Below, piece after piece: positions 1,558 to 58,768 of a stretch of DNA of 64,000 nt; position 1 is the first letter of the stretch; the number at the start of each line of letters is the position of its first letter. The stretch comes from a virus (lineage: Duplodnaviria; Caudoviricetes). Below the pieces are notes generated by a model, which did no database searches, was not told the origin of the DNA, and saw only the letters and a program-made list of their open reading frames with translations. The stretch is from positions 7,517 to 71,516 of the IMG/VR virus record IMGVR_UViG_2871846418_000001, one strand, 5' to 3'. Both the position numbers and the translations under genes were made by a program.

Positions 1558-2383
1558 CGATAGGCTCCAGTCTGCGGATTACGTCTTTTTGATCTTCGGA
1601 GAGGGTGAATTTGGTGCTGACCGTGGCGATCACTGCATCAGCTTTCTTGCTGCCGGACTCAATCATCCTTTGCCAACCAGGCAGATTTGCACTGAACTTA
1701 TCTGCTGGGTAATGTGGCAGCGTCAACGGCGCCTGGGTTTCTTTGTGGGGCGTCACATCCTTGGCGTCGTTGATATCCAGTGTTTTTCCCTCCATTTCTT
1801 CTGCCGTGGGTTGTTGGCCGATTTCGGGCCATGCTTTGCGCAGCGCCTGCGCTTCCGCGCATTTCGCTAACTGGCCGTAAGGGCGTTTTTTCCACATGGC
1901 ATTGGGGGCTGAATTATCACGACCGGCGGTCGCGTAGTTTTCCAGCCAATACTCTTTGGCACTGAACTCGACGATCTTGCCATCGGGCATGCGCTTACAG
2001 ACTGTGTATTTGCACCAGGCGGGGAAGGTGATCTCGACGCCGTTTAGCGTCTTTGTAATATCGTCGCCAAATTCAGGCTCATTTGCACCCGCATAGCTCC
2101 CTGAGCGGTCGGCCTGAATGCGATAAAGGCCGATGCCGGGCATCACTACGTCGCGCCATTCGTTTTTGCCTGATTGGGCATCTTTAACGCTCATCGGTAC
2201 CAAGTGAACCGGCTTCATCAGCGGATCCAACTGACGAGCGATGCAATAGCTGACAGCCATGACAACAGAGTCATCCCGCGCGCCGGGATAAATGGAGTTT
2301 TTCAGCGCGTTCCAGGTAGGCTCATCGATCCCCATGGCCGCGACAGATTGTGGCAAAGTGCCTGTTGTTACCATGTTGCTCAT
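1544..2383 (-). CDS. bet: Phage recombination protein Bet (single-strand annealing)
   Basis: LDPLMKPVHLVP, GIGLYRIQADRSG, WKKRPYGQLAKCAEAQALRKAWP motifs; next to exonuclease. Confidence 0.9.
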   Translation of the reverse strand: MSNMVTTGTLPQSVAAMGIDEPTWNALKNSIYPGARDDSVVMAVSYCIARQLDPLMKPVHLVPMSVKDAQSGKNEWRDVVMPGIGLYRIQADRSGSYAGANEPEFGDDITKTLNGVEITFPAWCKYTVCKRMPDGKIVEFSAKEYWLENYATAGRDNSAPNAMWKKRPYGQLAKCAEAQALRKAWPEIGQQPTAEEMEGKTLDINDAKDVTPHKETQAPLTLPHYPADKFSANLPGWQRMIESGSKKADAVIATVSTKFTLSEDQKDVIRRLEPIDANH

Positions 2384-2538
2384 TGGTCAGCCCTCACGGA
2401 GTTACGGATAGATAAGCGGAAAACGCTGAGAACGACGGCGCAGGCTTTCAACGAATGGCGGCGGTGTTTGAAATGGTGAATATTGTGGCTGCCGATCCGG
2501 TGTTGGTACTGGATCTGTTGGATAGGGTTATGGCTCAT
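2380..2538 (-). CDS. Small hypothetical phage protein (52 aa)
   Basis: GGAG RBS, MSHNPIQQIQYQHRIG..., TGA overlaps bet ATG. Confidence 0.55.
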   Translation of the reverse strand: MSHNPIQQIQYQHRIGSHNIHHFKHRRHSLKACAVVLSVFRLSIRNSVRADQ

Positions 2539-2683
2539 GGTATTCTCCGTGTTGATCGGGGGTGGTTCCCCGGTCAGCTAGCTGGTGGCCTTTGGTCATT
2601 GGCCAGTCCTTATGATTTGCGGTTTGGTCGCCGCATCTCGGGATAGCCCCGCTTGCGGGGCTTTTCTCGTTTATGGAGGAAAT

Positions 2684-4953: not shown

Positions 4954-5217
4954 TTAGATGACGCCGCGGGGGATCCGGCTGCTACCGCGCATTTTCTGGC
5001 GACCGGCGGCGCTGATTTGCCCAGGCGCCAGAGGCTCGCTCTCAACAGTGCGGCGTTTGCGTGGCTTCGGTGGTGCTGGCATATCCGGCATCGTTTTACA
5101 GCGGGTGATCACCAACGTTGTTTTTTCGATGCGGTCGCTGCTGCGCTGGATTCGTTCTTGCAATTCACGAGCTCGGCGCAGCCGTGCTGATTTAGCTTTT
5201 GCTTTAATCATGGTCAT
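4954..5217 (-). CDS. N: Early antiterminator, N-like
   Basis: Arg-rich N-terminus (SARLRRARE), C-terminal GRQKMRGSSRIP resembling the end of lambda N; downstream of pL and boxA. Confidence 0.7.
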   Translation of the reverse strand: MTMIKAKAKSARLRRARELQERIQRSSDRIEKTTLVITRCKTMPDMPAPPKPRKRRTVESEPLAPGQISAAGRQKMRGSSRIPRGVI

Positions 5218-5308
5218 TGGTCAGTCCTTATTGTTGGTTTTTCTGGGATATTTAGGCACGCCCAGCCGTGCTATCCTTGCTGTCACCACAACAAGTAAGG
5301 ATACGGTT

Positions 5309-7309: not shown

Positions 7310-7966
7310 TTATTTATTGCCCTCTCGCAGAATCCATTTCGCATCAACAACCACCCCAACAGGCATGTACTGCCCATCTATTTTAATCATTGAGTAGTTT
7401 TGGTTTAGCGGTCTGAGGTATCGATCACCGGCCTCTTCAACATACTTCCTGAAAAATATTTCTCGAGTTCCAGACTTCTTAAATATAACTAAATTACCAG
7501 AAGTGAGACTGTCAGTAGGATTAACGAGTATCATCATCCCTTCAGGAATCGTTAGTCCTATAGGAGAGGTCATGGCATCGGTTTCTACTTTCAACCAAAA
7601 TGCATCTTTACCTACGTTCAGAGTAGTTTCCAGCCATTTTTCAGCTTTTTCTTTGCCCCCCTCAATCTGCTGCAATACTGACTGCCAATTTAATACTGGG
7701 TGTCTATAGGGCGTGTATTGTGGCTCTGGATCAATATTAGAAGTGCGGCCTTCAATAGTTCCTTTACCCGTTTGAAGCCACTCGGGATCGCATCGCAAAG
7801 CTCGTGCAACATTGAAAAGGGTGTCGCCATTGAAATTTTTGGTCATGCCGAGTTCAGCCTTGCTTATTGCAACGCGTGAGACGCCAGCTTTCTTGGCTAA
7901 TTCTTCTTGAGACATTTGCAAATCAGCTCGCCGTTTACTGACTCGCTCGCCAAGGGTACTGGTCAT
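7310..7966 (-). CDS. cI: CI-like repressor (HTH + degenerate S24 domain)
   Basis: LGERVSKRRADLQMSQEELAKKAGVSRVAISKAE HTH; C-terminal S24-like fold; divergent from cro. Confidence 0.9.
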   Translation of the reverse strand: MTSTLGERVSKRRADLQMSQEELAKKAGVSRVAISKAELGMTKNFNGDTLFNVARALRCDPEWLQTGKGTIEGRTSNIDPEPQYTPYRHPVLNWQSVLQQIEGGKEKAEKWLETTLNVGKDAFWLKVETDAMTSPIGLTIPEGMMILVNPTDSLTSGNLVIFKKSGTREIFFRKYVEEAGDRYLRPLNQNYSMIKIDGQYMPVGVVVDAKWILREGNK

Positions 7967-7989
7967 CTTTTGCTCCAAACCTGAAATCA

Positions 7990-8065
7990 GACACCAAAGT
8001 AACATTAACCTTAGAAACTTTGTTTTCGTTGTGCTATTGATTGGTTTCGACACTTTAGTTACGCT
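7990..8065 (+). promoter_or_regulatory. OR operators and pR
   Basis: GACACCAAAGTAAC (7990), GAAACTTTGTTTTC (8014), GACACTTTAGTTAC (8049) match the OL motif; TTGATT-17-TACGCT at 8037-8065. Confidence 0.72.
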
Positions 8066-8081
8066 TGCCGTGGAGGTAACA

Positions 8082-8324
8082 ATGAGACTTTACGAAATTC
8101 TGAAAGAACAAATTGGTAGTAACGCAGAAATTGGGCGCCTATTCCCATCCAAAGGCAGGGCAAGAACTGGGCAAGCCGTGGGGAAATGGAGGGCTCAAGG
8201 AGTACCTGAAGACATAGCTCTGCTTTGTCACTTGTCACCAAAAATCCCATACACCTACAACCCTGCGGACTACGGCCGCAATCCTGAAAATTTAAGCCTG
8301 GTTCTGACCAAGCCGGCTTGTTAG
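8082..8324 (+). CDS. cro: Cro-like protein
   Basis: GGAGGT RBS; GSNAEIGR...GQAVGKW...GVP; position after pR. Confidence 0.75.
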   Translation: MRLYEILKEQIGSNAEIGRLFPSKGRARTGQAVGKWRAQGVPEDIALLCHLSPKIPYTYNPADYGRNPENLSLVLTKPAC

Positions 8325-8344
8325 CAGTACATAAGGACTGACCA

Positions 8345-8704
8345 ATGACCACAATTTACCAGCCAGACGACGGAACGGCAGGGGCCACGATAGCCTCAGG
8401 TGTCCGGAAGGAGCTTTTGGGGCGTAAGAAGGTAGGCAAGAACGGCCTGCCGTTCTCAGCTGTCCGTGAAGACCAGATCAAAACCCGTTGGACAGAAAGC
8501 GAAGCGGTGACGATCAAAAGCGCCGCCAGCGCGATGTCGTCAAATCCCGCCGTTGAAACCAACGTTGCCGCGATCCGGGGTTTCCTGGCTATGTTTGCCG
8601 AAGCGCCCGAAATGCTGGTGCACGTTCATAACGAACTGAAGGCCGCCGGCCTGCCAGTTCCCGAATGGCTTCCACTTCCACCCACCAAGGAGCTGTCGAA
8701 ATGA
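8345..8704 (+). CDS. Hypothetical regulator at the cII position
   Basis: 119-aa ORF directly after cro; function inferred from position only. Confidence 0.65.
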   Translation: MTTIYQPDDGTAGATIASGVRKELLGRKKVGKNGLPFSAVREDQIKTRWTESEAVTIKSAASAMSSNPAVETNVAAIRGFLAMFAEAPEMLVHVHNELKAAGLPVPEWLPLPPTKELSK

Positions 8705-9941: not shown

Positions 9942-10425
9942 ACAACTGAACTATGCCATCAGGGCCGCGTCGGGACGAAAGTTTTATCCGTTCCCTACAC
10001 CACCGGACTGGCTGGCCATGGCGAAAGAGCTGTTCGACGCAAGACTGCCGACAGTGGACATCGTGATGGAGGAGTTTGACCGGTACAGCGCAAGGCGGGG
10101 CTATTTCGACAGCCCTGAAGCATTCCGATGGAAAGCGCCGATCCTGTACTGGATTGTCACCGATATGCGCAAGGCGATGCAGCAGTACAACCATGGCGTT
10201 GCTGAGCTGCGAAAAGTGGCAGAGAGGCTGCTTAGGCAGTGGGAAAAAAGACTACAGGACGGGGAGCGAATACCGGATCCAGTCATCAGGCTGGGGCATA
10301 CCGAAATACCGATAGGTGTTGGAAAAGAGCGGGGATTGACCACCCCCGATACAGAGCAAAAAGGCGCGGCAATGCTTCAGTCAATTCGGCTGAGGGTGGC
10401 GCAAGCAAAAATGAATAAGGACTGA
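9670..10425 (+). CDS. Replication protein P-like helicase loader
   Basis: LPTVDIVMEEF, WKAPILYWIVTDMR motifs; follows initiator. Confidence 0.75.
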   Translation: MSDRNVPKQVTAAAMQQIASSRDSPQFRPYKKNTATAAEREAMQGIVLTVILPMYPIHWPAWVSRMNTTALMEAFGSELTRVLLQETINPEQLNYAIRAASGRKFYPFPTPPDWLAMAKELFDARLPTVDIVMEEFDRYSARRGYFDSPEAFRWKAPILYWIVTDMRKAMQQYNHGVAELRKVAERLLRQWEKRLQDGERIPDPVIRLGHTEIPIGVGKERGLTTPDTEQKGAAMLQSIRLRVAQAKMNKD

Positions 10426-10428
10426 CCA

Positions 10429-11571
10429 ATGACTATTAGCATCAAAAACGCACTGATTTACCGCATGTCCCGCGACATTGACTTCTCAGGGATGGAAGAG
10501 AAGCTGGCCGCTTTTGCGTTCACGCCATGCGGCAGCCAGGACATGGCTAAAACCGGATGGGTAGCACCGATTGGTGATGCACTCGTACACACTGCCAACG
10601 GTCAGCATCTGCTGGTGGTCCAGCGTGAAGAGAAAATCCTTCCCCGAGAGGTAATTCAAACCGAGCTGAACAAGAAAGTCGCCAAACTTGAAGCTGAACA
10701 GCATCGGAGACTGAAAAAGTCAGAGAAAGATGCTCAGAAGGATGAAGTGCTGCACTGCCTGATTCCGAGAGCCTTCAGCAAATACCATAAGACACAGATC
10801 TGGATTAACGAAAGGGCCGGGTTAATTGTCGTTGACGCCGCCAGTGCCAAGCGCGCTGAAGATACGCTGGCGCTGCTGCGCAAGAGCCTGGGCTCGCTCC
10901 CGGTGGTACCGCTGACCATGGAAAACCCGATCGAACTGACCGTGACCGAGTGGGTACGCTCCGGGCAGCCGCCAGCGGGATTCATTCTGCAGGATGAGGC
11001 TGAGCTGAAAGCAGTGCTGGAAGAGGGCGGGATCATCCGTTGCAAGAAGCAGGAGCTGGTCGGCGATGAAATAGCGACGAACCTGCAGGCGGGTAAGTTG
11101 GTCACGAAGCTGGTGCTGAGTTGGCAGGATCGAATCGACTTCGCGCTGAGTGATGACGGCGCCCTGAAGAAACTGAGATTCAGCGATGCGCTGCTGGAAC
11201 AAAACGACGATATCGATCGGGAAGATTACGCCCAACGCTTTGACGCGGACTTTATTTTGCTGACCGGCGAGCTGGCTACGTTGATTACTAACCTGATCGC
11301 GGTGCTCGGCGGCGAGTCGAAAGTAACCCCGGAGAACAATGAATCAACGGTTACCGAGGATGAAGAGAGTCTGAGTGACGGACTCTATCCCGAAGCTGCG
11401 CGGTTTGTGCAGGCCAAGGGGCAGGCTTCGATTTCAGGCCTGCAACGTCAATTCCGTATCGGCTATAACCGCGCTGCGCGGCTGATAGAACAGATGGAGG
11501 CTGGTGGCGTACTGTCAGCGCCAGGTGTCGATGGCACACGGGCAGTGTTGATCACAGGGGCTGCGCAATGA
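10429..11571 (+). CDS. rdgC: RdgC with C-terminal FtsK-gamma-like domain
   Basis: [27 protein letters not shown]; C-terminal [25 protein letters not shown]. Confidence 0.92.
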
Positions 11572-18095: not shown

Positions 18096-18227
18096 CTACT
18101 CCTCAATAGGTTTTTTGGGTGGTGGTGGTGCAGGTGGAGGCGGTGGCCGACGCTGCTGTGGAGGTAACGGATTTTTACCCTTATCAATTTGTTGATACGG
18201 TGGTGGTGTCGGTGCTTTCCTCGACAT
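18096..18227 (-). CDS. Polyproline peptide 1 (43 aa)
   Basis: AGGAG RBS inside upstream gene; MSRKAPTPPPYQQIDKGKNPLPPQQRRPPPPPAPPPPKKPIEE. Confidence 0.82.
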   Translation of the reverse strand: MSRKAPTPPPYQQIDKGKNPLPPQQRRPPPPPAPPPPKKPIEE

Positions 18228-18828
18228 AATCTACTCCTGGAGTGTCTTGTAGGAACTCAACCCATTTAATATCAGAAATATTAAATATCATCAATTTGAC
18301 TGTTGGCATATCCTGATAGCCATCAGGCAGCACCCAGCTTGGATTCATTAAAACGAGGTGCCCCTTGGTTGGATCAGATGGCCATTCGGTCGGCCAGCCA
18401 AAGATTCTTCTCTCATCGTTCAAGTGTATAATTACAAAAGACTCATTACAGTTGAATGTGCCAAACCACTCGCAATGATAGGAAGTCTCTTTTGTGATTT
18501 TCAGCGTCCTAAGTATACTGTGAAGTCGATCATTGTTTGCAAATGTGCTAAATGTGAAACCGAAAATTACAGCAACAGCGTATGACCAAACGAGATGGAC
18601 GTTATTACTCCAAGCGCCAAAAGAATAGTATTTACCTAAGTAAATTAAAGTGAATTTTAATGCAGCCACTCCACCTTGAATAAATACAGTGAATATTAGA
18701 GCTTGGATAATTCGTTCAAATTGGGCTTGTTTCGGATACGAAGTAAAAGCATGGAAGATCCAAGCCGTAACAAACCCCGGAAGTAAATATTTTAGGATGT
18801 TGAATATTTCACTGCTAATTGATTCCAT
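18184..18828 (-). CDS. DUF6338-like membrane protein (3 TM + small beta domain)
   Basis: YLLPGF N-terminal motif, three hydrophobic helices, VIIHLNDERRIFGW...HLVL...IKWVEF. Confidence 0.8.
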   Translation of the reverse strand: MESISSEIFNILKYLLPGFVTAWIFHAFTSYPKQAQFERIIQALIFTVFIQGGVAALKFTLIYLGKYYSFGAWSNNVHLVWSYAVAVIFGFTFSTFANNDRLHSILRTLKITKETSYHCEWFGTFNCNESFVIIHLNDERRIFGWPTEWPSDPTKGHLVLMNPSWVLPDGYQDMPTVKLMIFNISDIKWVEFLQDTPGVDYVEESTDTTTVSTN

Positions 18829-18960
18829 TTGACAATCCTTGAGTCATAGCGGTCGCAGGAAGTCTTTTGTTTCATTTATGGCAATGCATGCAGTACGTGT
18901 TGCGTTTGATGCAATGAACTATACAATCGACTATGCACCATAATATCAGGACTGACCAAT

Positions 18961-19773
18961 ATGACCAACGCAATAGAACAACTCATAAAAATGCACGATC
19001 CGCGCTGTGTAAGCGCAGAGTCAATGAATGTAGGCCGTGGACGCGCTTCCCTGACCAGGGAGCAGATCCTCGGGGCATTAGCTGCAGTACAGCACCGGCA
19101 TTCAGTCGGCCTTGACCTGCTGATGTCCAAGTACCGCAACGATTATAAAGCGGAACAGCGGGTACGTGCAGCGATCAATGAATGGGTGCATCAACGACCA
19201 CATCCTGAACGCGCGACGGCAGCATGTCAGTTAGCCCTCAGTATCGCGCTTGAGCGAAACCTTCCAGCCCAGGTGGCGTACATTGCAGCACTACTTCGCC
19301 GATATGGCCCGCGAACAGCCCAAACGCGGAAAAATATTGAAGCGTTGCAATCCGAGATTAAAGCGCTGGAGAAACGGCGCAGCCAAGCACAGATCACCGA
19401 TATTGAATATCACGAGGTTGGCTTCGAAATTACCGATATAACCAAACGGATTGAGCGGGAGCGGGCAGCACTTCGAGCTTGGTCTGAACAACACGCCGCT
19501 ACAACCAATATATGCCCACGTTGCTCCGGTACCGGCCGCATGATTAGGCAGCATCCTATAGAGTGCGAAGAGTGTGGCGGTAAAGGCAAGATTCCGGCCA
19601 ATATGGAACATCTGCGTAAGTCCATGCGTATCATAGGGGCTGAGGTAGAGCCTGGTGAATGGGCAAGCCGTTATACCGAGTTGGTGAAACAGTGTATGGA
19701 TTGGATGTTCGTCGAAGAATCAAATGCGATTGGTGTACTATCAGATAGAATTGCTATGGAAAAAGGTGAGTAG
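18961..19773 (+). CDS. Q: Late antiterminator Q-like, zinc-finger type
   Basis: CPRCSGTG and CEECGGKG; upstream of pR' and lysis genes. Confidence 0.78.
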   Translation: MTNAIEQLIKMHDPRCVSAESMNVGRGRASLTREQILGALAAVQHRHSVGLDLLMSKYRNDYKAEQRVRAAINEWVHQRPHPERATAACQLALSIALERNLPAQVAYIAALLRRYGPRTAQTRKNIEALQSEIKALEKRRSQAQITDIEYHEVGFEITDITKRIERERAALRAWSEQHAATTNICPRCSGTGRMIRQHPIECEECGGKGKIPANMEHLRKSMRIIGAEVEPGEWASRYTELVKQCMDWMFVEESNAIGVLSDRIAMEKGE

Positions 19774-19776
19774 AAA

Positions 19777-20400
19777 ATGTTGAAAAGAACTCGCTCATTG
19801 TATGAAAACTGTATTAGGCCCGAACTGAACATTTATTCAGTCGGTATGCTTTTTATGTTCGCGATTTCTATGCTGCTGCTTCTTTTCGGCTTCTTGGGTG
19901 GAGCTGAATTCGTCGCCTTTATTATAGCAAGCGCTGTACTGGCTATAATAATTAAAATGCTGCCTGAGATTAGTGAGTTCTCTTTGGCCGGCAATACGGT
20001 TAAGTTGAAACAAAAATTGGATGAGGCGGAAGACTTAACTGAAAGTTTACGGAATCTTAAGCGAATTACCTTAAACACCATGATTGAGTTGATTATGAGA
20101 CATCCAGGGGGGTTCGGAAGCGTTTTTATAACTGATGAACGAATTCCAGACTTTATTGATTTCTATAGGCAGGTTGAAGGCACTGAGTTTGAGCGTGATT
20201 TAGCTGAAAAAATTAAAGAGCGTGCGCAAATTTTTGAAAGTGTACTGGAACGTGAAGTGAGTAATTATCATACACATGCGGCGGTAGATGAAGTGCACAG
20301 AAACGACTACCGAGAGAAATATGAAGAGGATAAATCGAATTTGAAGGTTATAAAATCGATTTTGGCTCGGTTGAAGGACCTATTGCCATCAGCAAACTAA
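19777..20400 (+). CDS. 2-TM membrane moron
   Basis: AT-rich 207-aa ORF, two N-terminal hydrophobic segments, coiled-coil. Confidence 0.7.
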   Translation: MLKRTRSLYENCIRPELNIYSVGMLFMFAISMLLLLFGFLGGAEFVAFIIASAVLAIIIKMLPEISEFSLAGNTVKLKQKLDEAEDLTESLRNLKRITLNTMIELIMRHPGGFGSVFITDERIPDFIDFYRQVEGTEFERDLAEKIKERAQIFESVLEREVSNYHTHAAVDEVHRNDYREKYEEDKSNLKVIKSILARLKDLLPSAN

Positions 20401-20454
20401 TGCGCTAAATTTCCGAAAGATGCCGGAGTATGCTTAAAGCTACTTCGGCTTTTT
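20383..20454 (+). promoter_or_regulatory. pR'-like late promoter 1 with leader terminator
   Basis: TTGCCA-17-TAAATT then hairpin (20422-20449) and T run. Confidence 0.78.
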
Positions 20455-20498
20455 ATTGGTCAGTCCAAAGCCTGCATGGTTCGCCCAGCAGGCTTTTT
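20418..20498 (+). ncRNA. Candidate pR'-leader sRNA antisense to a shared start-site motif
   Basis: ATTGGTCAGTCC (20455-20466) between two hairpins, exact complement of GGACTGACCAAT; 5' end estimated. Confidence 0.45.
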
Positions 20499-20526
20499 CT
20501 ATTCCCCCACGCAGGGGAGGTGGAGT

Positions 20527-20772
20527 ATGACAATGCAGGAGAAAGCAACCTTCGCGGCCTACCTCTCTTCGGGGTTCCTGGTGCTGGTCGGCAAGGTGGG
20601 TAAATGGTTTAACGACCTCACTCTCAATGACTGGGCGATCGTCATAGGTATCGCCATCGGTATCGCAACCTTCGCCGCCAACATCTATTTCCAGAATCGC
20701 CAGACGCGCGCCATTGAGCGGGCCTCTCGTGCCGGCGCCACGATCATCAATCCGGGACGTACCAACAAATGA
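20527..20772 (+). CDS. Holin
   Basis: 81 aa, two hydrophobic segments, basic C-terminus, Met-Thr-Met start; precedes endolysin. Confidence 0.82.
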   Translation: MTMQEKATFAAYLSSGFLVLVGKVGKWFNDLTLNDWAIVIGIAIGIATFAANIYFQNRQTRAIERASRAGATIINPGRTNK

Positions 20773-21317
20773 CGACTAAAAAGAAAATCGCCGCTACGGT
20801 CTGCTCTGTTTCAGTAATTATTGGGTTAGCCCTTAGCCAGGCAGATGACTTCACATCGGCAAACGGAAATCCTCTACGTTTTTCCAAGGCGGCAATGGAA
20901 GTGATGGGGAATGCGGAAGGCTGCCGCCGCGATCCGTATCTATGCCCCGCCAAAATCATCACACAGGGGATCGGCCATACCGGGAAAGGTGTTGCTGCCG
21001 TTAGTCAGGCCAGTGATCAGCAGATAGCGAAGTGGTTCGCCGAAGACCAACTGGCGGCGCAGAACTGCATTGAGGTTAATGTCGAACGTAAGCTGGGGAG
21101 GAAACTCTCTCAGGGGGTGTTCGATGGGATCGGGAGTTTTATTTTCAATGTGGGCTGTGGCCAGTTCACTCGCTCCACTATGTACCGCTACCTACTGGCC
21201 GAAGAGACCGTGGCCGCATGCGAGCAGCTGCCTCGCTGGATTTATGCTGGTAAAACGGTTCTTCCGGGGTTAGTCACGCGCCGCGAGAAAGAGAAGGCAC
21301 TCTGCCTAGCTCACTGA
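20769..21317 (+). CDS. SAR endolysin (lysozyme)
   Basis: N-terminal SAR segment; EGCRRDPY..TQGIGHT; GLVTRR. Confidence 0.9.
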   Translation: MTTKKKIAATVCSVSVIIGLALSQADDFTSANGNPLRFSKAAMEVMGNAEGCRRDPYLCPAKIITQGIGHTGKGVAAVSQASDQQIAKWFAEDQLAAQNCIEVNVERKLGRKLSQGVFDGIGSFIFNVGCGQFTRSTMYRYLLAEETVAACEQLPRWIYAGKTVLPGLVTRREKEKALCLAH

Positions 21318-21449
21318 AAACAGGCCCATTCAGGCCAAAATCATGCTGAATATCCCCAAGTCGGTAACGCTACGTGAAATCTGCGATCACGATGATTGTC
21401 GTTGCCCACGCATTTTTCATAGCAAACGGCTTTTAGCCTGGATCCCGAG

Positions 21450-27811: not shown

Positions 27812-27882
27812 TTGCATCAGAACTTTTGATGCGCTAGATTTCCGAATGATACACAGCCTCGCCCTAAAAAGCGGGGCTTTTT
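27812..27882 (+). promoter_or_regulatory. pR'-like late promoter 2 with terminator
   Basis: TTGCAT-17-TAGATT, TGCGC before -10, then AGCCTCGC..GCGGGGCTTTTT. Confidence 0.7.
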
Positions 27883-28055
27883 TATTTCCATCGGTCAAGG
27901 TCAGTGTTGTTGTGTTTTTCCTTTGAGTGTTTGCCCGCCTTGTGCGGGCATTTTTGTTTGTGCCGCTAAGCACTTTGTTAGCAGAGCGCTTATTCGCACG
28001 GGCAGCGATACGCCTTTCCGGTTCGGATCTATCCGACAAATAGACATGCAGGAGT

Positions 28056-36004: not shown

Positions 36005-36078
36005 TTGTATCGAGCAGTGAAATGCGCTAAATTCCCCAAAGATGCCGACCTATGCTTAACAGCAGGGTCGGTTTTTTT
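36005..36078 (+). promoter_or_regulatory. pR'-like late promoter 3 with terminator
   Basis: TTGTAT-17-TAAATT, TGCGC, then GCCGACC..GGTCGGTTTTTTT. Confidence 0.72.
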
Positions 36079-36101
36079 ATTCCATCAATCTGTGACCCCA
36101 T

Positions 36102-43750: not shown

Positions 43751-43823
43751 TTAACAGACGGCATCTTTTGCGCTAAATTACCCAATGATGCCAAGCCTCG
43801 CTCTAACCAGCGGGGCTTTTTTT
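43751..43823 (+). promoter_or_regulatory. pR'-like late promoter 4 with terminator
   Basis: TTAACA-17-TAAATT, TGCGC, then AAGCCTCGC..GCGGGGCTTTTTT. Confidence 0.72.
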
Positions 43824-43846
43824 ATGCCTAAAATCTGGAGCCCAAA

Positions 43847-46800
43847 ATGGCCTACGATCCGCAACAACAGCGACCTGAAGAGCAAGCATTAAACAACAAC
43901 CGTGAATCGCTGAACATCCGTCAGCCAGGTGAGACTGGTAGTACTGGCTTCAACTGGGAGCAGGTGCGTAAAGCGCGGGAGGCCGCCGGCCGAAAATCAG
44001 TGAGCCCTGAGACAGATTACACGCTTAAGGATGCAGCAGTTGGGGTGGCCTCTGCGATCCCTTCGATAATCCACAATATTGGTGAGTTCGGCACTGCATC
44101 GTTAAACAGCACTGAACAGTTGATTCAAAATGACGATCTTGCTGATATGGATCCAGTATCGCGTAACGCGATTCTGCAATCACGCGGTACTGCGCAAGCA
44201 TTTAAATCAATCGGAGGTATCGCAGGAAAAATCGCTGATAAAGTCAATGAAAATTATAGTGATGGGGCTAAAGCAGCTACCCAGACCCCTATTATAAAAG
44301 ATGACGGTAAAGGCGGTATTGCACTTGGAGAGGGGGCTTTCAACTCTGATGTCTGGTTGTCAAAAGCGGTACCGACTCTTGCGGAGCTTTTTGCTACCGG
44401 CGGCGTAGCGAAACTAGGTGCAGCATCTGCGGCTAAAGTTGCCGAAGATATGGCATTTAAAAGCCTTAGTAGAAAGCTTCCAGAGGAACAGGCGCGATCC
44501 ATAGCGCAAGCTGCCGCTCAGCAGGCGGCTGAACGGGCACAACGGAATATCTTCATAGGAACCTCCGCCGCAACCGCTCAAGGTGGAGGTGGTGTTAACT
44601 TGCGTCAGCAAGTTAACCAAATCCCATTCAATGATCTGATTGGCAGCAAAACATTCCAGGATGAATTCAACCGTATTGATTTGAATCCAGAAAATAACAA
44701 GTTAAGTGACACTCAAAAATTAACTCTGGCAAGAGAGTCTGTAGCCAATCAGATGAGTGCAACTATGGTAACAGATCCGAGAATGTTGGCAGTTAATCTG
44801 GCGGCATCGACATTCGGTGACCATACATTGATGAAGTTGATTACTGGCAAGGCAGCCGCGAAGACTATAGGTTCAGGGGCGCTACTTGGAGCATCTGCGG
44901 AAGGTGGGACCGAGTTTGCACAAGGGGCCAGCCAGCGTTATTTGCAAAACCAAGAGTTATCGAATACTGCTGGGCAGCGAATTGATCCAATGAAGGATGT
45001 TTTATCATCGGGATTTGAAGGCGCGGCACTGGGGGCAGGGATCGGTGCTGGTGCGGGCGCTATTGGCGGTTTTCGTGGCAGCCGGTCAGCACATGAACAG
45101 CAGGGGGCTGAGAAACAAAATCAACCAGCTAATGCTGAAAATGCCACCGGGGAGCAGCAGCCGGTCAGCGGCAATAATCCAGATGTAATGCCAGAACAAC
45201 CGGCACCGGCAGCACCTGGTCAGTTTGCCTCTGAAGAGGTTGCCGGCGCCGCGTCAACGCGTGCTGATGAGTTCAGAGACATTCCCGCATACCTGCGCCA
45301 AGACCCGCGAATCCAAGGCTTCGCCGAGGATAACGATGTGCAGCGTGCGCTGGCGGAACAACAGCCATCGCCGACGGCGGACGAATTAATCCAGCAGCAA
45401 ATGGAGTCGGGCGATCAGGGATATTCCCCGGATGAGCTCGCAGCTCAAGATCGCGCGGACCAAGTTCGCGAGGCATTGATGCCGCGACTGCCAGCCCCGG
45501 GTAAAACATCCGTCATCGCCATGCCTGGTGAAGTGGCAAATGTGAATGCTGACGAAGCACAGGTTGGCACTGGGCCACAGTTCCGCGCGGGGGAGCAAGT
45601 TCGTGGCCAGCAGTACATTCCACGCGAGGTGGATCCACGGGTAAACGAAGTTGGCCGCGCATCGCAGACCTATGACGGCGAGACGATTCCTGGCAATGCG
45701 ATCACCGACAAGAACATCATTTTCGCTGATGGGCCAGTACCCAATACTGACGAGGTGCAGGCCGGAGCAACGCCAGCATTCACCCGGGGTGAAACGCGCG
45801 ACCAGCGTAACCTGCGTGAATACTCCGAGGGCATCGGTGCCAATAGTCAGCCTCAGGGATTGCCGGACAATCGACAGCGCGCTGGTGGTGTTCCCATTGA
45901 TGCGCAGACTGAGGCTTACGCCAAGGGTGAGTCAGTCGGTGAACTCCGGTTCTTTGGTGATAAACCATTCGCTACATTACGAATGGCGCAGGCATCCCGT
46001 TCAGGGAAAACCCCAGGAGCCAAGTTTGAAGCGGTTGAGGGAGGGTATGCGATACGCATGCCGGTAGAGAAAGCGCCGGTCGTAGAGCCACAGGCTACAG
46101 AAAGCGGCCTCACTAAAGATGAGTCTGCTGAGCTGATACAGAGATTGCTGGCTGATGATCGAGCAGGCGGCCATGTCATGGATATTTTCAGGGCCGCGCA
46201 TGGAACACCAGATGAGCGACGTATGCATGGTGCTACGTATCGCCCAATGCTTAACGAGCTGCGCGCCAAAAAACCACACTGGCGCGGTGGCGCTGAATTT
46301 GGCCGGGAAGATGATGCTCACGGGGCCACTCGCCACCAGGACGAGATCAACGACTTCGGGCAGGAAATCAAAGGGGCTGCTAAGCACAAGTGGGGGAAAT
46401 TCTCGGAAGCAATGGAGCGCGAGGCCACGGACGAACAGTATCGAACTGAACCTCTGTCCAAGCTGTTCCCGCAACCTGATTACAACAAGATGTCTGCTGG
46501 TGGGATCAGCCACGATAAGCTGGCGATGATCTCTATCTTGCGCGCGCAGATCCCGCCGACCAAACCGAAGCGTTTACTACAGCGCTGGGTCGAATCTGCG
46601 CAGGTGATGAAAGGCCTCTCTGCGGATCTGCTCGAAGGGCGGGTCAGCGTTTCTGATGTCCGTGAGCAAATGCGCGCCAGCAGTAATTTGCGGGGGATGT
46701 TGGACACGCACGACTTCATCTCTTCCCTCCCTCCCGAGCAAATGGCTACAGCCTCGAAATATCGTATCCGTCAGTCGAAATATTCAATGTACGCCGGCAA

Positions 46801-49800
46801 GCAGTACCCAGCTCCGGGGAAGCTGATCTACGAACTGGAGACTGCGAAAGGTAAGACTGTTAGTGGTGTGTCCGATGCTGACAAAGACAAATTTATGGGT
46901 AAGGCGCGAGCCTACGTTGAGCAGGAAAGCGGCAGCTCGTCGGTGCCGAAGCAAACCAATTTTGGCATTTTCCTCGATCGGAAGAAGCGTGATGTTTTCA
47001 TCGGTTACAAAGGTGCCAGTGGCATCGCCAGAGTAAAGGAAGGGTTCAAGGATGCTCGTAAGGCCCGCGATTTTATCAATGAACACCGCGATGAACTGGA
47101 AGGTTTGGTGGCCCAGCAACGAGAGCAGGCGCGTACTGAGCAACGTCGGGATACGAATGCTCCGCGTAATGGGGTTGCGCGCCGTTCATCGGACGTTACC
47201 ACTGAGCAATTTGATAAAGAGTTTGGCTTCCGTGGCGTTCAGTTCGGCAATTACGTTGAGTCGGGGCGGCGCCAGGCAGAACTGAATGATGCCTTTGACA
47301 GCCTGCAGGACATGGCCGAGATCATCGGCGTGCCACCAAAGGCCCTTTCGCTGAATGGTGAGTTGGGCCTTGCATTCGGTGCTCGCGGGCGTGGCGGCTC
47401 GAATGCGGCCAAGGCGCATTATGAGCCGGGGGAGGTTGTGATTAACCTGAACAAGAACAATGGCGCCGGATCCCTGGCTCATGAGTGGTTCCACGCTCTG
47501 GACAACTATTTCGGCCAGGCGGATGTCGGTGGTGGGCGAGGTGATAATTATGCGACAGTTCGCCGCCGGCAGACCATGAAGTTTAAAGACGGCAAGATGG
47601 TGCCGGCTGATTTCCCTGTGCGTCAAGAAGTCTGGGATGCCTGGAAAGGGGTGATGAAAGCCGTCGGCGACAGCGGTATGGTTGCGCGTGCGCAGAAGCT
47701 GGACGAGCTGCGCAGTAAGCCATATTGGGCTACCAACCTTGAAATGGCTGCCCGTTCGTATGAGCGTTATATCCTCGATCGCGCAGAAGCCAAAGGTATC
47801 CGGAACGACTATCTGGTCAACCTTAAGAAAGCCGATGAGCACGGCAATCCATCAACGTATGCATATCCGACGGAGACAGAGCTGAATAATGGCGTTCGTG
47901 ATGCCTTTGACACCCTCTTCAAAACGCTGAAAACCAAGCCTACAGATCGCGGTGTGGCCTTCTACTCGAAAGATGGCCTCGACATTGGCGGTGGCAATGT
48001 CCTTTCTGAAGGCAACTTTGATGTGTCTGGGGCGAAGCCCGAAAAGGGAATGGGGGACCGACAGGCGCAGCACATCGCTGACCAATGGGTCCGCCGCTAC
48101 AATGGCGCAGCAAAAATCAAAGTTCAGGTGGTTCAAACCCAGGCCGACGCCGCTACGATGATGCCGAATGGCATTCCTAAGGAGTTCGGTACCGTGCACG
48201 CCATTTATCAGCCGGAGCTTAGCCGCGTGATTGTGGTTGCCGATAACATTGCGAACGGAAAGCAGCTTCGTGCCAAGCTGCGCCACGAGGTTTTGGCGCA
48301 CCACGGCTTGGCATCAGTGATCGGTGATGTGGAGTATGACCGCATTCTGAGAGTGTTACACCAAACGCGCGACAGTTCGAATGGGGAGATCCAAGACGTC
48401 TGGAAGCAGGTGAAAAAGTCCTACGGCAACGAGTCAGCTGAAGTACAGGCCAACGAGTTCCTGGCCCATATGGCCGAACGCTCGGAACTGACAGGGTTCG
48501 GAGCTGCTTGGGATCGCGTCATCATCGCGATCACCAATGCCCTCCGCAAGCTAGGATTTTTCAATCCGGGTGATATCTCACATGCAGAGATCCGCAATAT
48601 CTTGCGTTCCATTGCCGGCCGGTTCAAGCGTACTGCCATGTATGAAGGGGAGCAGCCAGGGAGCAGGGAGTTCAACAACACATTTAGTCGAACTGATGCG
48701 TTGTACTCGGCATCGAGTCGCAAGGATCCGTTCAAACCAGACAGCTACGATGCGAAGAAGTTTGCTGCTGAAGTTGAAGACATTGCTGGAATGGATAATG
48801 CGCCGCGCGGCATGGTGCGATTGGGGGATACCCCAGCGGTTTATCAGGCTCTTGGGGCGCGTAATCTTGAAATGGTGATGCCTGCATCGGTCGTGCATAA
48901 GGCAACAGATCCGATGGTTCGCGCGCACCAGGTTAGGTTGGAGGATATGCAGCGGTTGCCCGAATTGATCGCCGATCCTGTTGCGGTAATGCGCTCTGCG
49001 ACCGAGGGGGATGCTCTGGTGGCCTTAGTTGAAGCGAAAGATGCTTACGGCAGTCCTGTTATTGCGGCGATTCACCTTAATGGGAAGGGCGCTGGTTTTG
49101 CCGAGATCAATAAGATTGCCAGCGTATACGGGAAGGAGAATAACACTGCTCTGCAGCGTCAGCTGGATAACAACTTGCTGTATCTGAACAATGAAAAAGC
49201 CGCTAAGTGGCTTCATGCAGTCGGGCTCCAATTGCCCGAGGCGAACACCCTTAACGGCTCTGATAAAAATATACTCTTTCCAGAGGACATCCGCAAGAAC
49301 ACGGCGCTCTACTCCCGCAGCGGTGGTGCCACGATGGATGAAATTACCAACCAGAAAATGGGGTTCAACGTCGAAAAAGGGAAACTGGATAAGGCGAAAG
49401 ACTTCTATGGAATGGTCCGATCGAAGGATAAGAGCGAGCTGAAAGCCTGGCTGCAGGATGTGGGCCGGAAGCTCAACACCAAAACCTTCGATGGCATGGC
49501 GCCGCTTAAGTACGCGGAAGACGCGGCTGGTAAATCAGATGCCCGATCATCCGCTTATATTGGCGCGCGCATGGCAGCAGGCGCTGGCTCAGTTACTGCG
49601 GCAACGCTGGAGCATGGCCTGCCAAAATACAACAAAGCAGAAGGGGTTGTTGAACGGCAGGCAGGTACCGGAAAAGAAGATGCGCTGATGGGGATTCTCG
49701 ACGCACTGGGTAATCATCGCGAAAACTTCCTCAAGTGGATCGCCGGCCACCGTTCTGAGCGCTTGATGGCGGAGGGTAAGGAAAACAACTTCACGGCAGA

Positions 49801-58445: not shown

Positions 58446-58768
58446 AATTGGACATGTACGAAGTGCTATCCCGTTGGGGCGTGTGGGCGCGAGAAAGTAG
58501 TGGCATTGACTATTCGCCAATCGCTGCAGGCTTCAAGGGACTACTACCTCATCCATCCAATGGTAAACTGTCCTGCTGCGATGACGATGATTTGAAGATA
58601 GACGGATGTGTAGCTAAGCTGAAGAAATATAATCCGGATGAGTATGATCTTATCGTGATGCATCATATATATGGTTTGTCATTACGTAAAATAGCTAAAA
58701 AACTTAAATGTTCAGACGGAACGATTCGTAATAATATGCGAACTACCGAAGGATTAGGAAGACATTAA
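58442..58768 (+). pseudogene. Q: Antitermination Q family protein, probably C-terminally truncated
   Basis: LSRWGVWA, YSPIAAGFKGLLP, SLRKIA..CSDGTIR; ends abruptly in AT-rich DNA. Confidence 0.72.

What the first reader, a model, noticed from the sequence alone, without database searches (positions are those of the whole stretch)
20418..20498. pR' leader carries an exact antisense seed to that motif: candidate multi-target phage sRNA
Seen: ATTGGTCAGTCC (20455-20466) is the 12-nt complement of GGACTGACCAAT and lies unpaired between a hairpin (20422-20449) and a second terminator (20467-20498). Known: terminated pR' transcripts in Stx phages give rise to a regulatory sRNA (StxS). Inference: an RNA of about 80 nt could block ribosome loading on N, the cII-position gene, rdgC, bet and Q. 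It would either reinforce lysogeny or, if made only on read-through of the first terminator, give late negative feedback.
Basis: partly seen in the sequence, partly recalled or inferred. Interest (0 to 1): 0.82.

Follow-up and report, generated by a model that had tools for sequence, protein, structure and literature searches.

The report
Late-leader RNA complementary to early start sites
A prophage carries, just after its late promoter and between two terminators, a 12-base stretch that is the exact mirror of a motif sitting on the ribosome-binding site of about six of its early genes, which suggests one small phage RNA can switch off a whole set of early genes.

Summary
ATTGGTCAGTCC (20455-20466) lies between hairpin+U5 (20422-20454) and hairpin+U5 (20470-20498) and is the exact complement of GGACTGACCAAT. 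That motif sits in a fixed register (stop-GGACTGACCA-ATG) on the start sites of six early genes: an N-like gene, the cII-position gene, rdgC, recT, a micro-ORF and the Q-like gene.

Upstream is a sigma-70 promoter (TTGCCA-17-TAAATT) plus an invariant AAAGAT. The whole unit is conserved in 29 distinct leaders from Serratia, Yersinia, Pectobacterium, Brenneria and Symbiopectobacterium prophages whose Q-like proteins are only 54-87% identical. The seed is invariant apart from changes that keep G-U pairing, and two diverged leaders.

In five host genomes, 27 of 30 exact motif copies lie inside the prophage. The six start sites are the best predicted duplex partners in the window. There is no Rfam family, no isolated phage and no paper.

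Best reading (0.55): a leader-derived anti-start-site RNA that represses the tagged early genes. No transcript or repression has been shown.

Cluster K mycobacteriophages show a parallel layout: many start-associated sequences plus one reverse copy in the region where late transcription starts.

The parts
18949..18960 (+). Start-associated motif GGACTGACCAAT directly before the ATG of the Q-like gene
   Evidence: kept with 0-2 changes in 46 of 58 related IMG/VR loci
18961..19773 (+). Q-like gene (270 aa; phrog_127 'anti-termination protein Q-like' E 4.7e-13; TIGR02642 E 7e-86)
   Evidence: no PDB sequence match; AF2 model pLDDT 52
19777..20400 (+). 207-aa gene of unknown function (phrog_8083) between the Q-like gene and the leader; absent in relatives where the leader starts about 60 nt after the Q-like gene
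20383..20411 (+). Late promoter: -35 TTGCCA, 17-nt spacer ending in conserved GCGC, -10 TAAATT
   Evidence: 9 of 12 consensus matches; conserved in 25 of 25 aligned leaders and in the distant clade
20416..20421 (+). Invariant AAAGAT at the predicted transcription start (about 20417-20419); candidate sigma-dependent pause element
   Evidence: invariant in 25 of 25 leaders; AAAAAT in 2 of the 26 leaders; the likeness to the lambda pR' pause element is recalled, not tested
20422..20454 (+). Hairpin 1 plus U5: first intrinsic terminator (T1)
   Evidence: compensatory changes at 2 pairs (L025)
20455..20466 (+). Seed ATTGGTCAGTCC, exact complement of the start-associated motif
   Evidence: present in 16 of 29 distinct leaders, the G-U compatible ATTGGTCAGTTC in 10, ATTGGTTAGTCC in 1, diverged in 2
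20470..20498 (+). Hairpin 2 plus U5: second intrinsic terminator (T2), the possible 3' end of an ~80-nt RNA
   Evidence: a whole base pair is deleted in several relatives and the inner part is replaced in L010/L185 while the stem is kept
20499..20772 (+). Third small hairpin holding the holin ribosome-binding site, then holin (20527-20772)
20769..21317 (+). Endolysin (Phage_lysozyme)
10419..10430 (+). Motif at the start of rdgC-FtsK-gamma gene (10429-11571)
   Evidence: duplex -24.0 kcal/mol
8335..8346 (+). Motif at the start of the 119-aa gene in the cII position (8345-8704)
5216..5227 (-). Motif at the start of the 87-aa arginine-rich gene in the N position (4954-5217)
   Evidence: no family hit
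2598..2609 (-). 1-mismatch motif (GGACTGGCCAAT) at the start of a 23-codon micro-ORF
   Evidence: 6-8-codon equivalents in relatives
2382..2393 (-). 1-mismatch motif (GGGCTGACCAAT) at the start of the RecT-family gene (1544-2383)

Best explanation
**What it is.** The element is the leader of the first late promoter of a lambdoid prophage of the Serratia/Yersinia/Pectobacterium group. The parts in order are: promoter (20383-20411), start near 20417-20419, terminator T1, a 12-nt single-stranded seed, terminator T2.

**Proposed mechanism (inferred).** RNA that passes T1 carries the seed. That RNA is either an ~80-nt molecule ending at T2 or the 5' leader of the antiterminated late mRNA. The seed pairs over 12-15 bp with the start-associated motif. 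The motif spans the Shine-Dalgarno-like (TAA)GGA, the spacer and the AU of the AUG on the mRNAs of the N-like, cII-position, rdgC, recT and Q-like genes. Pairing blocks 30S binding.

**Proposed consequences (inferred).** In a lysogen this would silence leaky early transcripts and set a threshold for Q. Late in infection the abundant leader would shut off early-gene translation.

**Shown here:** the sequence, the fold, the conservation, the fact that the motif is specific to the phage, and the predicted duplexes.

**Not shown:** the transcript, read-through of T1, pairing in vivo, the sign of the effect, and any role of Hfq.
For: 1. Exact 12-nt complementarity to 4 exact and 2 near-exact start sites, against 0.21 copies expected by chance.
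2. All six sense copies share one register with the ATG, and 5 of 6 abut the stop codon of the gene before.
3. Across six phages, 41 of the 43 motif copies with up to 1 mismatch outside the leader have an in-register ATG. Each phage has exactly one leader copy without an ATG.
4. The six start sites give duplex energies of -23.3 to -24.6 kcal/mol. The next best site in the window gives -19.3, and the window mean is -7.6 with sd 2.7.
5. The seed is conserved as strongly as the promoter and the stems in 25 leaders, while the 2-4 nt after it and the loop of hairpin 1 vary. The consensus fold leaves it unpaired.
6. The seed changes seen keep pairing through G-U. C11>U occurs in 10 of 29 distinct leaders. 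C7>U occurs in L189, whose six motif copies outside the leader all keep G at position 6.
7. Seed and motif occur together. Of 58 loci encoding a relative of the Q-like protein, 45 have both, 11 have neither, and 2 have only one. The distant clade keeps the promoter and AAAGAT but has an ordinary GGAGG site and no seed.
8. The motif belongs to the phage: 27 of 30 exact copies in five host genomes lie in the prophage early region.
9. The window has four late-promoter cassettes. The third and fourth have a single terminator, and only the first has a spacer with antisense matches of 12 nt or more elsewhere. T2 and the seed are therefore an addition that termination control alone does not need.
10. 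Precedent: terminated pR' transcripts make the sRNA StxS (PMC7547250, abstract in the listing).
11. Possible convergent case in cluster K mycobacteriophage Adephagia. The one reverse copy of the start-associated sequence lies in the apical loop of a strong hairpin (z -6.67) in the gap between genes 92 and 93. Late transcription is reported to start in that gap (PMC11373665, passage).
Against: - No RNA evidence. Runs X1-X3 hold a relative only as contigs of 270 nt to 20.9 kb, which cannot show ends or strand, and X19 had no reads.
- T1 looks strong (11 bp, U5-6), so seed-bearing short RNA may be rare.
- Motif variants at start sites are not cleanly wobble-biased. A3>G, C4>T, A7>G and C9>T are compatible with pairing. 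G6>A, G6>C, A10>C and T12>A break pairing against an unchanged seed.
- The two diverged leaders (L010, L185) do not fit their own Q start sites better than the canonical seed would (my reading).
- L206 has the motif but a leader without a seed. L154 has the seed but a Q start site 3 changes from the motif.
- The co-occurrence is largely one clade split, not many independent events.
- In the cluster K parallel, DarthP and Ekdilam changed two loop bases while DarthP's start-associated sequences did not change; Ekdilam's were not examined.
Confidence: 0.55

Rival explanations
1. Pairing in cis only. On early rightward transcripts that run from pR through the Q-like gene into the leader, the seed folds back on the Q start site 0.9-1.5 kb upstream and limits Q translation. 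The other motif copies would serve another purpose.
For: The Q-like gene and the seed are always on the same strand, 0.9-1.5 kb apart in most relatives. The Q start site keeps the motif with up to 2 changes in 46 of 58 loci, although the sequence before it differs.
Against: The same motif sits on genes of the opposite (leftward) operon and on genes 10-18 kb away, which cannot pair in cis. The exact 12-mer is kept at those sites too.
Confidence: 0.13
2. The 12-mer is a double-stranded DNA site for a phage or host protein, so orientation is irrelevant and the leader copy is simply one more site.
For: As DNA, the window already uses both orientations: 3 plus-strand and 4 minus-strand copies. No RNA has been shown.
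Against: 41 of 43 non-leader copies are in fixed register with an ATG and on the coding strand, which a DNA site does not require. The seed variants are C>T changes that keep RNA G-U pairing but would alter a DNA site. The leader copy sits exactly between two terminators.
Confidence: 0.1
3. Reverse logic. Abundant early mRNAs carrying the motif pair with the nascent leader and change termination at T2 or the stability of the late leader, so that early transcripts license late expression.
For: The seed ends 2-4 nt before the 5' arm of T2, so a bound partner lies next to the terminator.
Against: Complementarity does not extend into the T2 arm, because the sequence before the motif varies among genes. 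A Q-like antiterminator already explains read-through.
Confidence: 0.07
4. No pairing function. The motif is a shared gene-boundary or strong start sequence spread by recombination among mosaic phages. The leader copy is an inverted relic, or is constrained only as the spacer and U-rich tail of tandem terminators.
For: The motif marks joints where the gene before it differs among relatives. The phage encodes RecT. ATT of the seed continues the U-tract of T1.
Against: A relic would decay, yet the seed is among the most conserved leader positions across Q-like proteins of 54-87% identity. The third and fourth cassettes of the same phage work with one terminator and no such spacer. The chance of an exact reverse 12-mer in 64 kb is about 0.004 (my arithmetic).
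Confidence: 0.07
5. The seed RNA acts mainly on host mRNAs, as StxS does, and the match to phage start sites is secondary.
For: Precedent of StxS acting on a host mRNA (recalled from PMC7547250; only its abstract was seen here). sRNA seeds need only 7-8 nt.
Against: Exact 12-mers in five host genomes are at chance level outside the prophage: 3 of 30. The phage start sites are the outstanding partners.
Confidence: 0.05

Closest known systems
StxS, the sRNA made from terminated pR' transcripts of Shiga-toxin phages (PMC7547250)
   Same: Arises from a late promoter that lies between a Q gene and the late genes and is stopped by a nearby terminator; proposed to act by base pairing.
   Different: No sequence relation: the 111-nt leader query (20395-20505) found no match in 5,426 complete E. 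coli genomes and there is no Rfam hit. Its seed is not matched to a repeated start-site motif of its own phage. Here two tandem terminators flank the seed.
c4 antisense RNA of phages P1 and P7 (Rfam C4 family; review PMC12197685, passage)
   Same: A phage RNA acting in trans through short complementary stretches around a ribosome-binding site of a phage gene, blocking translation.
   Different: c4 controls one operon (ant) and is an immunity function. Here 6-9 genes in two divergent operons share one identical target. No Rfam hit at gathering score.
Start-associated sequences (SAS) of cluster K mycobacteriophages (PMC3203893; PMC11373665)
   Same: An asymmetric 12-13-nt motif on the start sites of many non-structural genes, often overlapping the stop codon of the gene before, absent from the host, plus a single reverse copy that is not at a gene start (passages). 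In Adephagia that copy lies in the region where late transcription starts.
   Different: Unrelated sequence (GGGATAGGAGCCC), host and phage type. There the motif ends 3-9 bp before the start codon, whereas here its last two bases overlap the ATG. Its function is stated as unknown in the 2011, 2024 and 2025 papers. Loop and SAS do not covary in DarthP.
Lambda pR'-qut-tR' with Q antitermination and the 6S RNA (recalled)
   Same: Q-position gene, sigma-70 promoter, a -10-like element at the start of the transcript, terminator, then the lysis genes.
   Different: The Q-like protein is TIGR02642/phrog_127 with no sequence match to solved Q structures. The terminator lies about 35 nt from the start. 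The cassette occurs four times in the late region.
T4 RegA translational repressor (recalled)
   Same: One factor represses many early mRNAs by occupying their start sites; the closest functional analogue.
   Different: RegA is a protein; here the proposed factor is an RNA and the targets share an identical 12-mer.

Membership tests
Q-dependent late promoter leader (lambdoid pR'/qut type) | Lies between the antiterminator gene and the lysis genes | tested here: met
   Q-like gene 18961-19773, holin 20527-20772, endolysin 20769-21317
Q-dependent late promoter leader (lambdoid pR'/qut type) | Sigma-70 promoter conserved among relatives | tested here: met
   TTGACC/TTGCCA-17-TAAATT in 25 of 25 leaders and in the distant clade L194
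Q-dependent late promoter leader (lambdoid pR'/qut type) | -10-like pause element in the initial transcribed region | tested here: inconclusive
   AAAGAT invariant in 25 of 25 and AA(A/T)GAT in all four cassettes. Pausing was not tested; the likeness to lambda is recalled.
Q-dependent late promoter leader (lambdoid pR'/qut type) | Intrinsic terminator downstream | tested here: met
   Two hairpins each followed by a U-run; z -4.05; pairs kept through compensatory change. The simple scan did not list them.
Q-dependent late promoter leader (lambdoid pR'/qut type) | Antiterminator homologous to a characterised Q | tested here: inconclusive
   phrog_127 label, E 4.7e-13; TIGR02642, function unknown; no PDB match below E 0.06; AF2 pLDDT 52
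Trans-acting base-pairing sRNA (Hfq type) | Discrete transcript with defined ends | not testable with these tools
   Only assembled contigs of RNA libraries were available
Trans-acting base-pairing sRNA (Hfq type) | Conserved single-stranded seed complementary to target start sites | tested here: met
Trans-acting base-pairing sRNA (Hfq type) | Rho-independent terminator with U-tail and an internal U-rich stretch | tested here: met
   U5-8 after T2 and UUUUU(U)AUU before the seed. Hfq binding itself was not tested.
Trans-acting base-pairing sRNA (Hfq type) | Seed-target covariation | tested here: inconclusive
   Seed variants are G-U compatible, but target variants are mixed
StxS family | Sequence or structure homology to StxS of Stx phages | tested here: not met
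   The 111-nt leader query (20395-20505) found no match in E. coli genomes. StxS itself was not fetched or compared.
C4 antisense RNA (Rfam) | Match to the covariance model | tested here: not met
   No family at gathering score in the window; no C4 hit at E up to 10 in 20300-20600
Cluster K start-associated sequences | Motif GGGATAGGAGCCC | tested here: not met
   The motif here is GGACTGACCAAT: same kind of element, not homologous

The most novel reading that the evidence does not exclude
Start-associated motifs are address labels. A temperate phage tags a chosen set of early genes with one identical ribosome-binding-site sequence and encodes its complement once, in the leader of the late transcript. 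A single RNA, short and terminated in the lysogen and leader-embedded late in infection, then gates the whole early programme. The same design appears to have arisen independently in cluster K mycobacteriophages. That would explain their start-associated sequences, whose function has been unknown since 2011.
Probability: 0.3. Interest if true: 0.9.

Novelty: new variant of a known kind. Interest (0 to 1): 0.78.

Why it matters
- It would be a phage regulon defined by a shared start-site sequence read by one phage RNA, not by promoters or protein repressors. This would be a new layer in the lysis-lysogeny and early-late switches of lambdoid phages.
- It gives a directly testable hypothesis for start-associated sequences in mycobacteriophages, which the 2024 and 2025 papers I read in passages still call undefined.
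- Because relatives share the motif, a resident prophage's RNA could also silence incoming heteroimmune relatives. That would be an exclusion mechanism.
- The 12-mer and seed pair could serve as a compact orthogonal translational switch.

Tried and rejected
- **16S rRNA pairing.** I tested whether the motif is a translational enhancer that pairs with 16S rRNA beyond the Shine-Dalgarno sequence. The best duplex with the Serratia 16S rRNA was -13.0 kcal/mol, against a mean of -15.1 for 40 shuffles. The longest exact complement was 5 nt. Rejected.
- **Other cassette spacers.** I checked the spacers of late cassettes 2-4 for antisense targets. I found only 10-12-nt, mostly A/T-rich matches. Nothing there.
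- **Fold of the Q-like protein.** The AF2 model from 9 sequences had pLDDT 51.9. That is too poor to search, so no fold search was run.
- **RNA evidence.** Runs X1 and X2 hold a relative as contigs of 10.8 and 20.9 kb. X3 holds a 270-nt contig whose first aligned base is 20416, which is suggestive only, because contigs cannot show starts. X19 gave no reads.
- **Survey of one genome per species.** 28 of 401 genomes in the order hold TTTTTATTGGTCAGT. By my count of the table, the reversed control pattern hit about 10 genomes, so the survey says little.
- **Wobble bias among target variants.** No clean signal.
- **svsR** (PMC12803456, section 10 read) lies at the 3' end of cI and is unrelated. 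For the Pas sRNA preprint I saw only the outline and abstract.
- **Named phage records.** Megablast of 18900-21400, blastn of the leader, and tblastn of the Q-like protein found nothing related. The only hits were a 41-nt hit in a Limnohabitans phage and a 27%-identical Pasteurella phage protein.
- **Print search.** The four 12-mer strings appear in 5 papers, all unrelated primers or adapters judging by their titles. Supplements were closed, so sRNA catalogues of Yersinia, Serratia or Pectobacterium that sit in supplements could hold this RNA unseen.
Full report
**1. The observation**

The window is part of a 71.5-kb IMG/VR provirus record.
- Hairpin 1 at 20422-20449, then T5.
- ATTGGTCAGTCC at 20455-20466, then AAA.
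- Hairpin 2 at 20470-20493, then T5 ending at 20498.
- A third small hairpin that holds the holin ribosome-binding site.

GGACTGACCAAT with up to one mismatch occurs 7 times in 64 kb. The expectation is 0.21, and none of 100 shuffles reached 7. All seven copies lie in the first 20.5 kb.

Six copies are on the coding strand of a gene, in one register. The last two bases of the motif are the AT of the ATG; at the Q-like gene the ATG follows directly. In five of the six, the stop codon of the preceding gene abuts the motif (TAA/TGA-GGACTGACCA-ATG). TAAGGA can pair with the 3' end of 16S rRNA, which reads ...CCUCCUUA in the Serratia 16S fetched. The 12-mer therefore covers the Shine-Dalgarno sequence, the spacer and the start. 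The seventh copy, the finding itself, is on the opposite strand, and no ATG follows it.

**2. The genes**

The layout is lambdoid:
- Repressor at 7310-8053 (-), and a small Cro-position gene at 8031-8324 (+).
- A 119-aa gene in the cII position (motif).
- O-like and P-like replication genes.
- rdgC fused to an FtsK-gamma domain (motif).
- NinB.
- A Q-like gene at 18961-19773 (motif).
- A 207-aa unknown gene, then the leader, holin and endolysin.

Leftward:
- An 87-aa arginine-rich gene in the N position (motif). It has no family hit, so 'N' is an inference.
- A 23-codon micro-ORF (1-mismatch motif).
- RecT (1-mismatch motif).

The Q-like protein matches phrog_127, labelled 'anti-termination protein Q-like' (E 4.7e-13), and TIGR02642, a family of unknown function (E 7e-86). 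It has no sequence match to solved structures, and its AF2 model was too poor to use. 'Q' is therefore a label resting on position and one PHROG name.

**3. The leader is a conserved unit**

Relatives of the Q-like protein were found in Serratia, Brenneria, Yersinia, Pectobacterium and Symbiopectobacterium genomes at 54-83% identity. They were also found in 58 IMG/VR loci at 41-87% identity.

Eight of the first 10 genome loci carry TTTTTTATTGGTCAGTCC 0.1-0.5 kb after the gene; one of these has a G-U compatible change. A scan of IMG/VR for the 16-mer gave 33 stretches. Eighteen are this leader and 15 are unrelated contexts.

An alignment of 25 distinct leaders shows:
- A -35 (TTGACC or TTGCCA), a 17-nt spacer whose last bases, ACGCGC, are conserved, and a -10 TAAATT.
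- A variable 4-5 nt, then an invariant AAAGAT.
- Hairpin 1, U5-7, the seed, 2-4 variable bases, hairpin 2, and U4-8.

RNAalifold on 26 leaders predicts both hairpins and leaves the seed open. Hairpin 1 has two pairs with compensatory change. Hairpin 2 loses a whole pair or swaps its inner part while keeping the stem.

Among 29 distinct first-cassette leaders the seed reads:
- ATTGGTCAGTCC in 16.
- ATTGGTCAGTTC in 10. All ten carry a second partial seed (most often CGGTCAGTCC) directly behind the first.
- ATTGGTTAGTCC in 1.
- Diverged in 2 (ATGGGTCAGTGT, ACGGGTCAGTGT).

The core GGTCAGT is present in 28 of 29.

**4. The promoter assignment**

The simple scan found TTGCCA-17-TAAATT at 20383-20411, but promoter-like hits in the region are at chance level (8 found, 7.6 expected). 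The weight therefore lies on conservation.

The same -35/-10/AAAGAT core follows the Q-like gene even in a clade with only 41-43% identical proteins (L194). It also recurs three more times in this window, at 27831, 36024 and 43770. Each copy lies ahead of a block of late genes and is followed by a hairpin and a U-run.

A promoter that is immediately terminated, repeated at the heads of late gene blocks, and always associated with this protein family fits control by antitermination. The resemblance of AAAGAT to the sigma-dependent pause element of lambda pR' is from memory and was not tested.

**5. Is the motif the phage's own?**

In five host genomes of 4.4-5.3 Mb there are 30 exact copies, and 27 of them lie inside the prophage early region.

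In the six phages read in full over that region there are 49 copies with up to 1 mismatch. Six are the leader copies, one per phage. Of the other 43, 41 have an in-register ATG. The tagged genes are partly orthologous (N-like, cII-position, rdgC, recT, Q-like, a 155-aa gene, an 86-aa gene, micro-ORFs) and partly different. The sequence before the motif differs among them. No copy lies in the late genes of the window.

**6. Pairing**

With the segment 20449-20470 as probe, the six start sites give -23.3 to -24.6 kcal/mol. The next best site in either strand of the window gives -19.3, and the mean is -7.6 with sd 2.7. The duplex covers the Shine-Dalgarno sequence through the AU of the AUG.

In the 81-nt RNA, the central UCAGU of the seed is unpaired with probability of at least 0.99. 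A 3-bp helix (UGG/CCA) is predicted in this window. It needs the A at 20467, and most relatives have a T at that position.

**7. Tests that could have contradicted the idea**

- *Co-occurrence.* Among 58 IMG/VR loci, 45 have both the motif at the Q start (up to 2 changes) and a seed downstream. Eleven have neither, one has the motif only (L206, whose Q-like frame is cut to 155 aa), and one has the seed only (L154, whose Q start is 3 changes from the motif). Ten of the 11 'neither' loci are one clade, so this is about one evolutionary event.
- *Seed variation.* C11>U and C7>U both face a G in the target, and pairing survives as G-U. L189, with C7>U, has four exact motifs, one A7>G variant and one T12>G variant, all with G at position 6. 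This fits RNA pairing and not a DNA site, but it amounts to two events.
- *Target variation.* It is mixed. A3>G, C4>T, A7>G and C9>T keep pairing. G6>A, G6>C, A10>C and T12>A do not. There is no clean wobble bias.
- *The diverged leaders (L010, L185).* They do not fit their own Q start better than the canonical seed would.
- *16S rRNA pairing beyond the Shine-Dalgarno sequence.* Not above shuffles.
- *Other cassette spacers.* None has multi-copy antisense matches.

**8. Expression**

One search found three small RNA-library runs that hold a close relative. Laid on 20200-20800, they give contigs of 10.8 and 20.9 kb in X1 and X2. X3 gives a 270-nt contig whose first aligned base is 20416 and which runs through both terminators into the holin gene. 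Contigs cannot show starts, ends or strand, and long contigs may be DNA. This is a hint at most.

**9. Mechanism**

The most likely reading is a base-pairing RNA carrying the seed that occludes the tagged start sites. Two non-exclusive forms are possible:
- **A short RNA ending at T2.** If the late promoter is constitutive, as stated for pR' in the StxS paper's abstract, this RNA would be made in the lysogen. It would silence leaky early transcripts and set a threshold for the Q-like protein.
- **The 5' leader of antiterminated late mRNA.** This would turn early translation down once late transcription is on.

The architecture favours an RNA with its own 3' end: hairpin, U-rich stretch, seed, terminator with U-tail. 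That this is the usual build of Hfq-binding sRNAs is recalled. T2 and the seed are also absent from the third and fourth cassettes. Against the short form, T1 looks efficient.

**10. A parallel found in passing**

Pope et al. 2011 (PMC3203893, passages) described 13-nt start-associated sequences at the starts of 11-19 non-structural genes of cluster K mycobacteriophages. [quoted passage not shown] Papers of 2024 and 2025 still call the role unknown.

- In Adephagia I found 16 forward copies and one reverse copy, at record 58682-58694, in the 432-nt gap between genes 92 and 93.
- On the transcribed strand the reverse copy forms the 10-nt apical loop (CCUCCUAUCC) of a strong hairpin (181 nt, -94.9 kcal/mol, z -6.67).
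- The 2024 paper states that late transcription appears to start between genes 92 and 93.
- The hairpin region matches in 131 phage records.
- In 7 of 9 aligned phages the loop is CCTCCTATCCCC. In DarthP and Ekdilam it is CCTCCTTCCCCT, although DarthP's start-associated sequences are unchanged. There is thus no covariation there.

Two unrelated phage groups therefore share three features: tagged early start sites, one complement, and a position in or near the late leader. This raises my odds for the general idea, but it proves nothing about this window.

**11. Known or new**

- No Rfam family matches.
- No isolated phage in the collection holds the leader or a close Q-like gene.
- No E. coli genome holds the leader.
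- The motif strings appear in no relevant paper.
- The phage-sRNA review I searched by terms lists nothing like it.
- Supplements were closed, so an unnamed entry in an sRNA catalogue cannot be excluded.

The ingredients are known: sRNAs from terminated late transcripts, and antisense occlusion of ribosome-binding sites. The combination of one seed matched to a repeated, identical start-site tag on a set of the phage's own early genes is, as far as I could search, undescribed.

**Verdict**
- Novelty: a new variant of a known kind.
- Interest: 0.78.

Noticed in passing
window 20383-20498, 27812-27960, 36005-36080, 43751-43825: There are four copies of a late-promoter cassette (GCGCTA(A/G)ATT, 4 nt, AA(A/T)GAT, hairpin, U-run). 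Each lies ahead of a block of late genes. Relatives have at least a second copy about 7-9 kb after the first. Repeated Q-type promoter-terminator units inside a late region are unusual for lambdoid phages.
   Followed up: partly
L211 38683-38695 (Adephagia record 58682-58694): The single reverse-oriented start-associated sequence of cluster K phage Adephagia forms the apical loop of a strong, conserved hairpin in the gap between genes 92 and 93, where late transcription is reported to start. The loop and the start-associated sequences do not covary in DarthP.
   Followed up: partly
window 20474-20489; loci L050-L141: The 16-mer GCATGGTTCGCCCAGC inside terminator 2 also occurs in 69 unrelated IMG/VR loci. 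46 of those copies are flanked by G+C arms and a T-run. This is a widely shared terminator-loop sequence of unknown meaning.
   Followed up: partly
loci L008, L049, L055 and 21 more of L049-L141: Yersinia-type leaders carry two seeds in tandem, ATTGGTCAGTTC followed by (C/T)(G/A)GTCAGT(C/T)C, then TGACTAC, which can fold back on the second seed.
   Followed up: partly
window 27881-27925: The spacer between the two terminators of the second cassette contains GGTCAAGGTCAGTGTTG. It shares 11 nt with the diverged seed of L010/L185 and includes the 7-nt anti-motif core GGTCAGT.
   Followed up: partly
window 2530-2609 (-): A 23-codon micro-ORF carries the motif, and its stop overlaps the start region of a 52-aa ORF. 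Relatives have 6-8-codon micro-ORFs with the motif in the same region ahead of recT.
   Followed up: partly
window 10429-11571: RdgC (PF04381, E 3e-109) is fused to a C-terminal FtsK-gamma DNA-binding domain (PF09397, E 3e-23).
   Followed up: no
window 43847-51913: An open reading frame of 2688 aa lies directly after the fourth late-promoter cassette.
   Followed up: no
window 18184-18828 (-): A DUF6338 gene lies on the opposite strand just before the Q-like gene; it may be a moron.
   Followed up: no
L206 5315-5400: One relative has the promoter and AAAGAT followed by a single different terminator and no seed. Its Q-like frame is cut to 155 aa, although motif copies remain in the record.
   Followed up: partly
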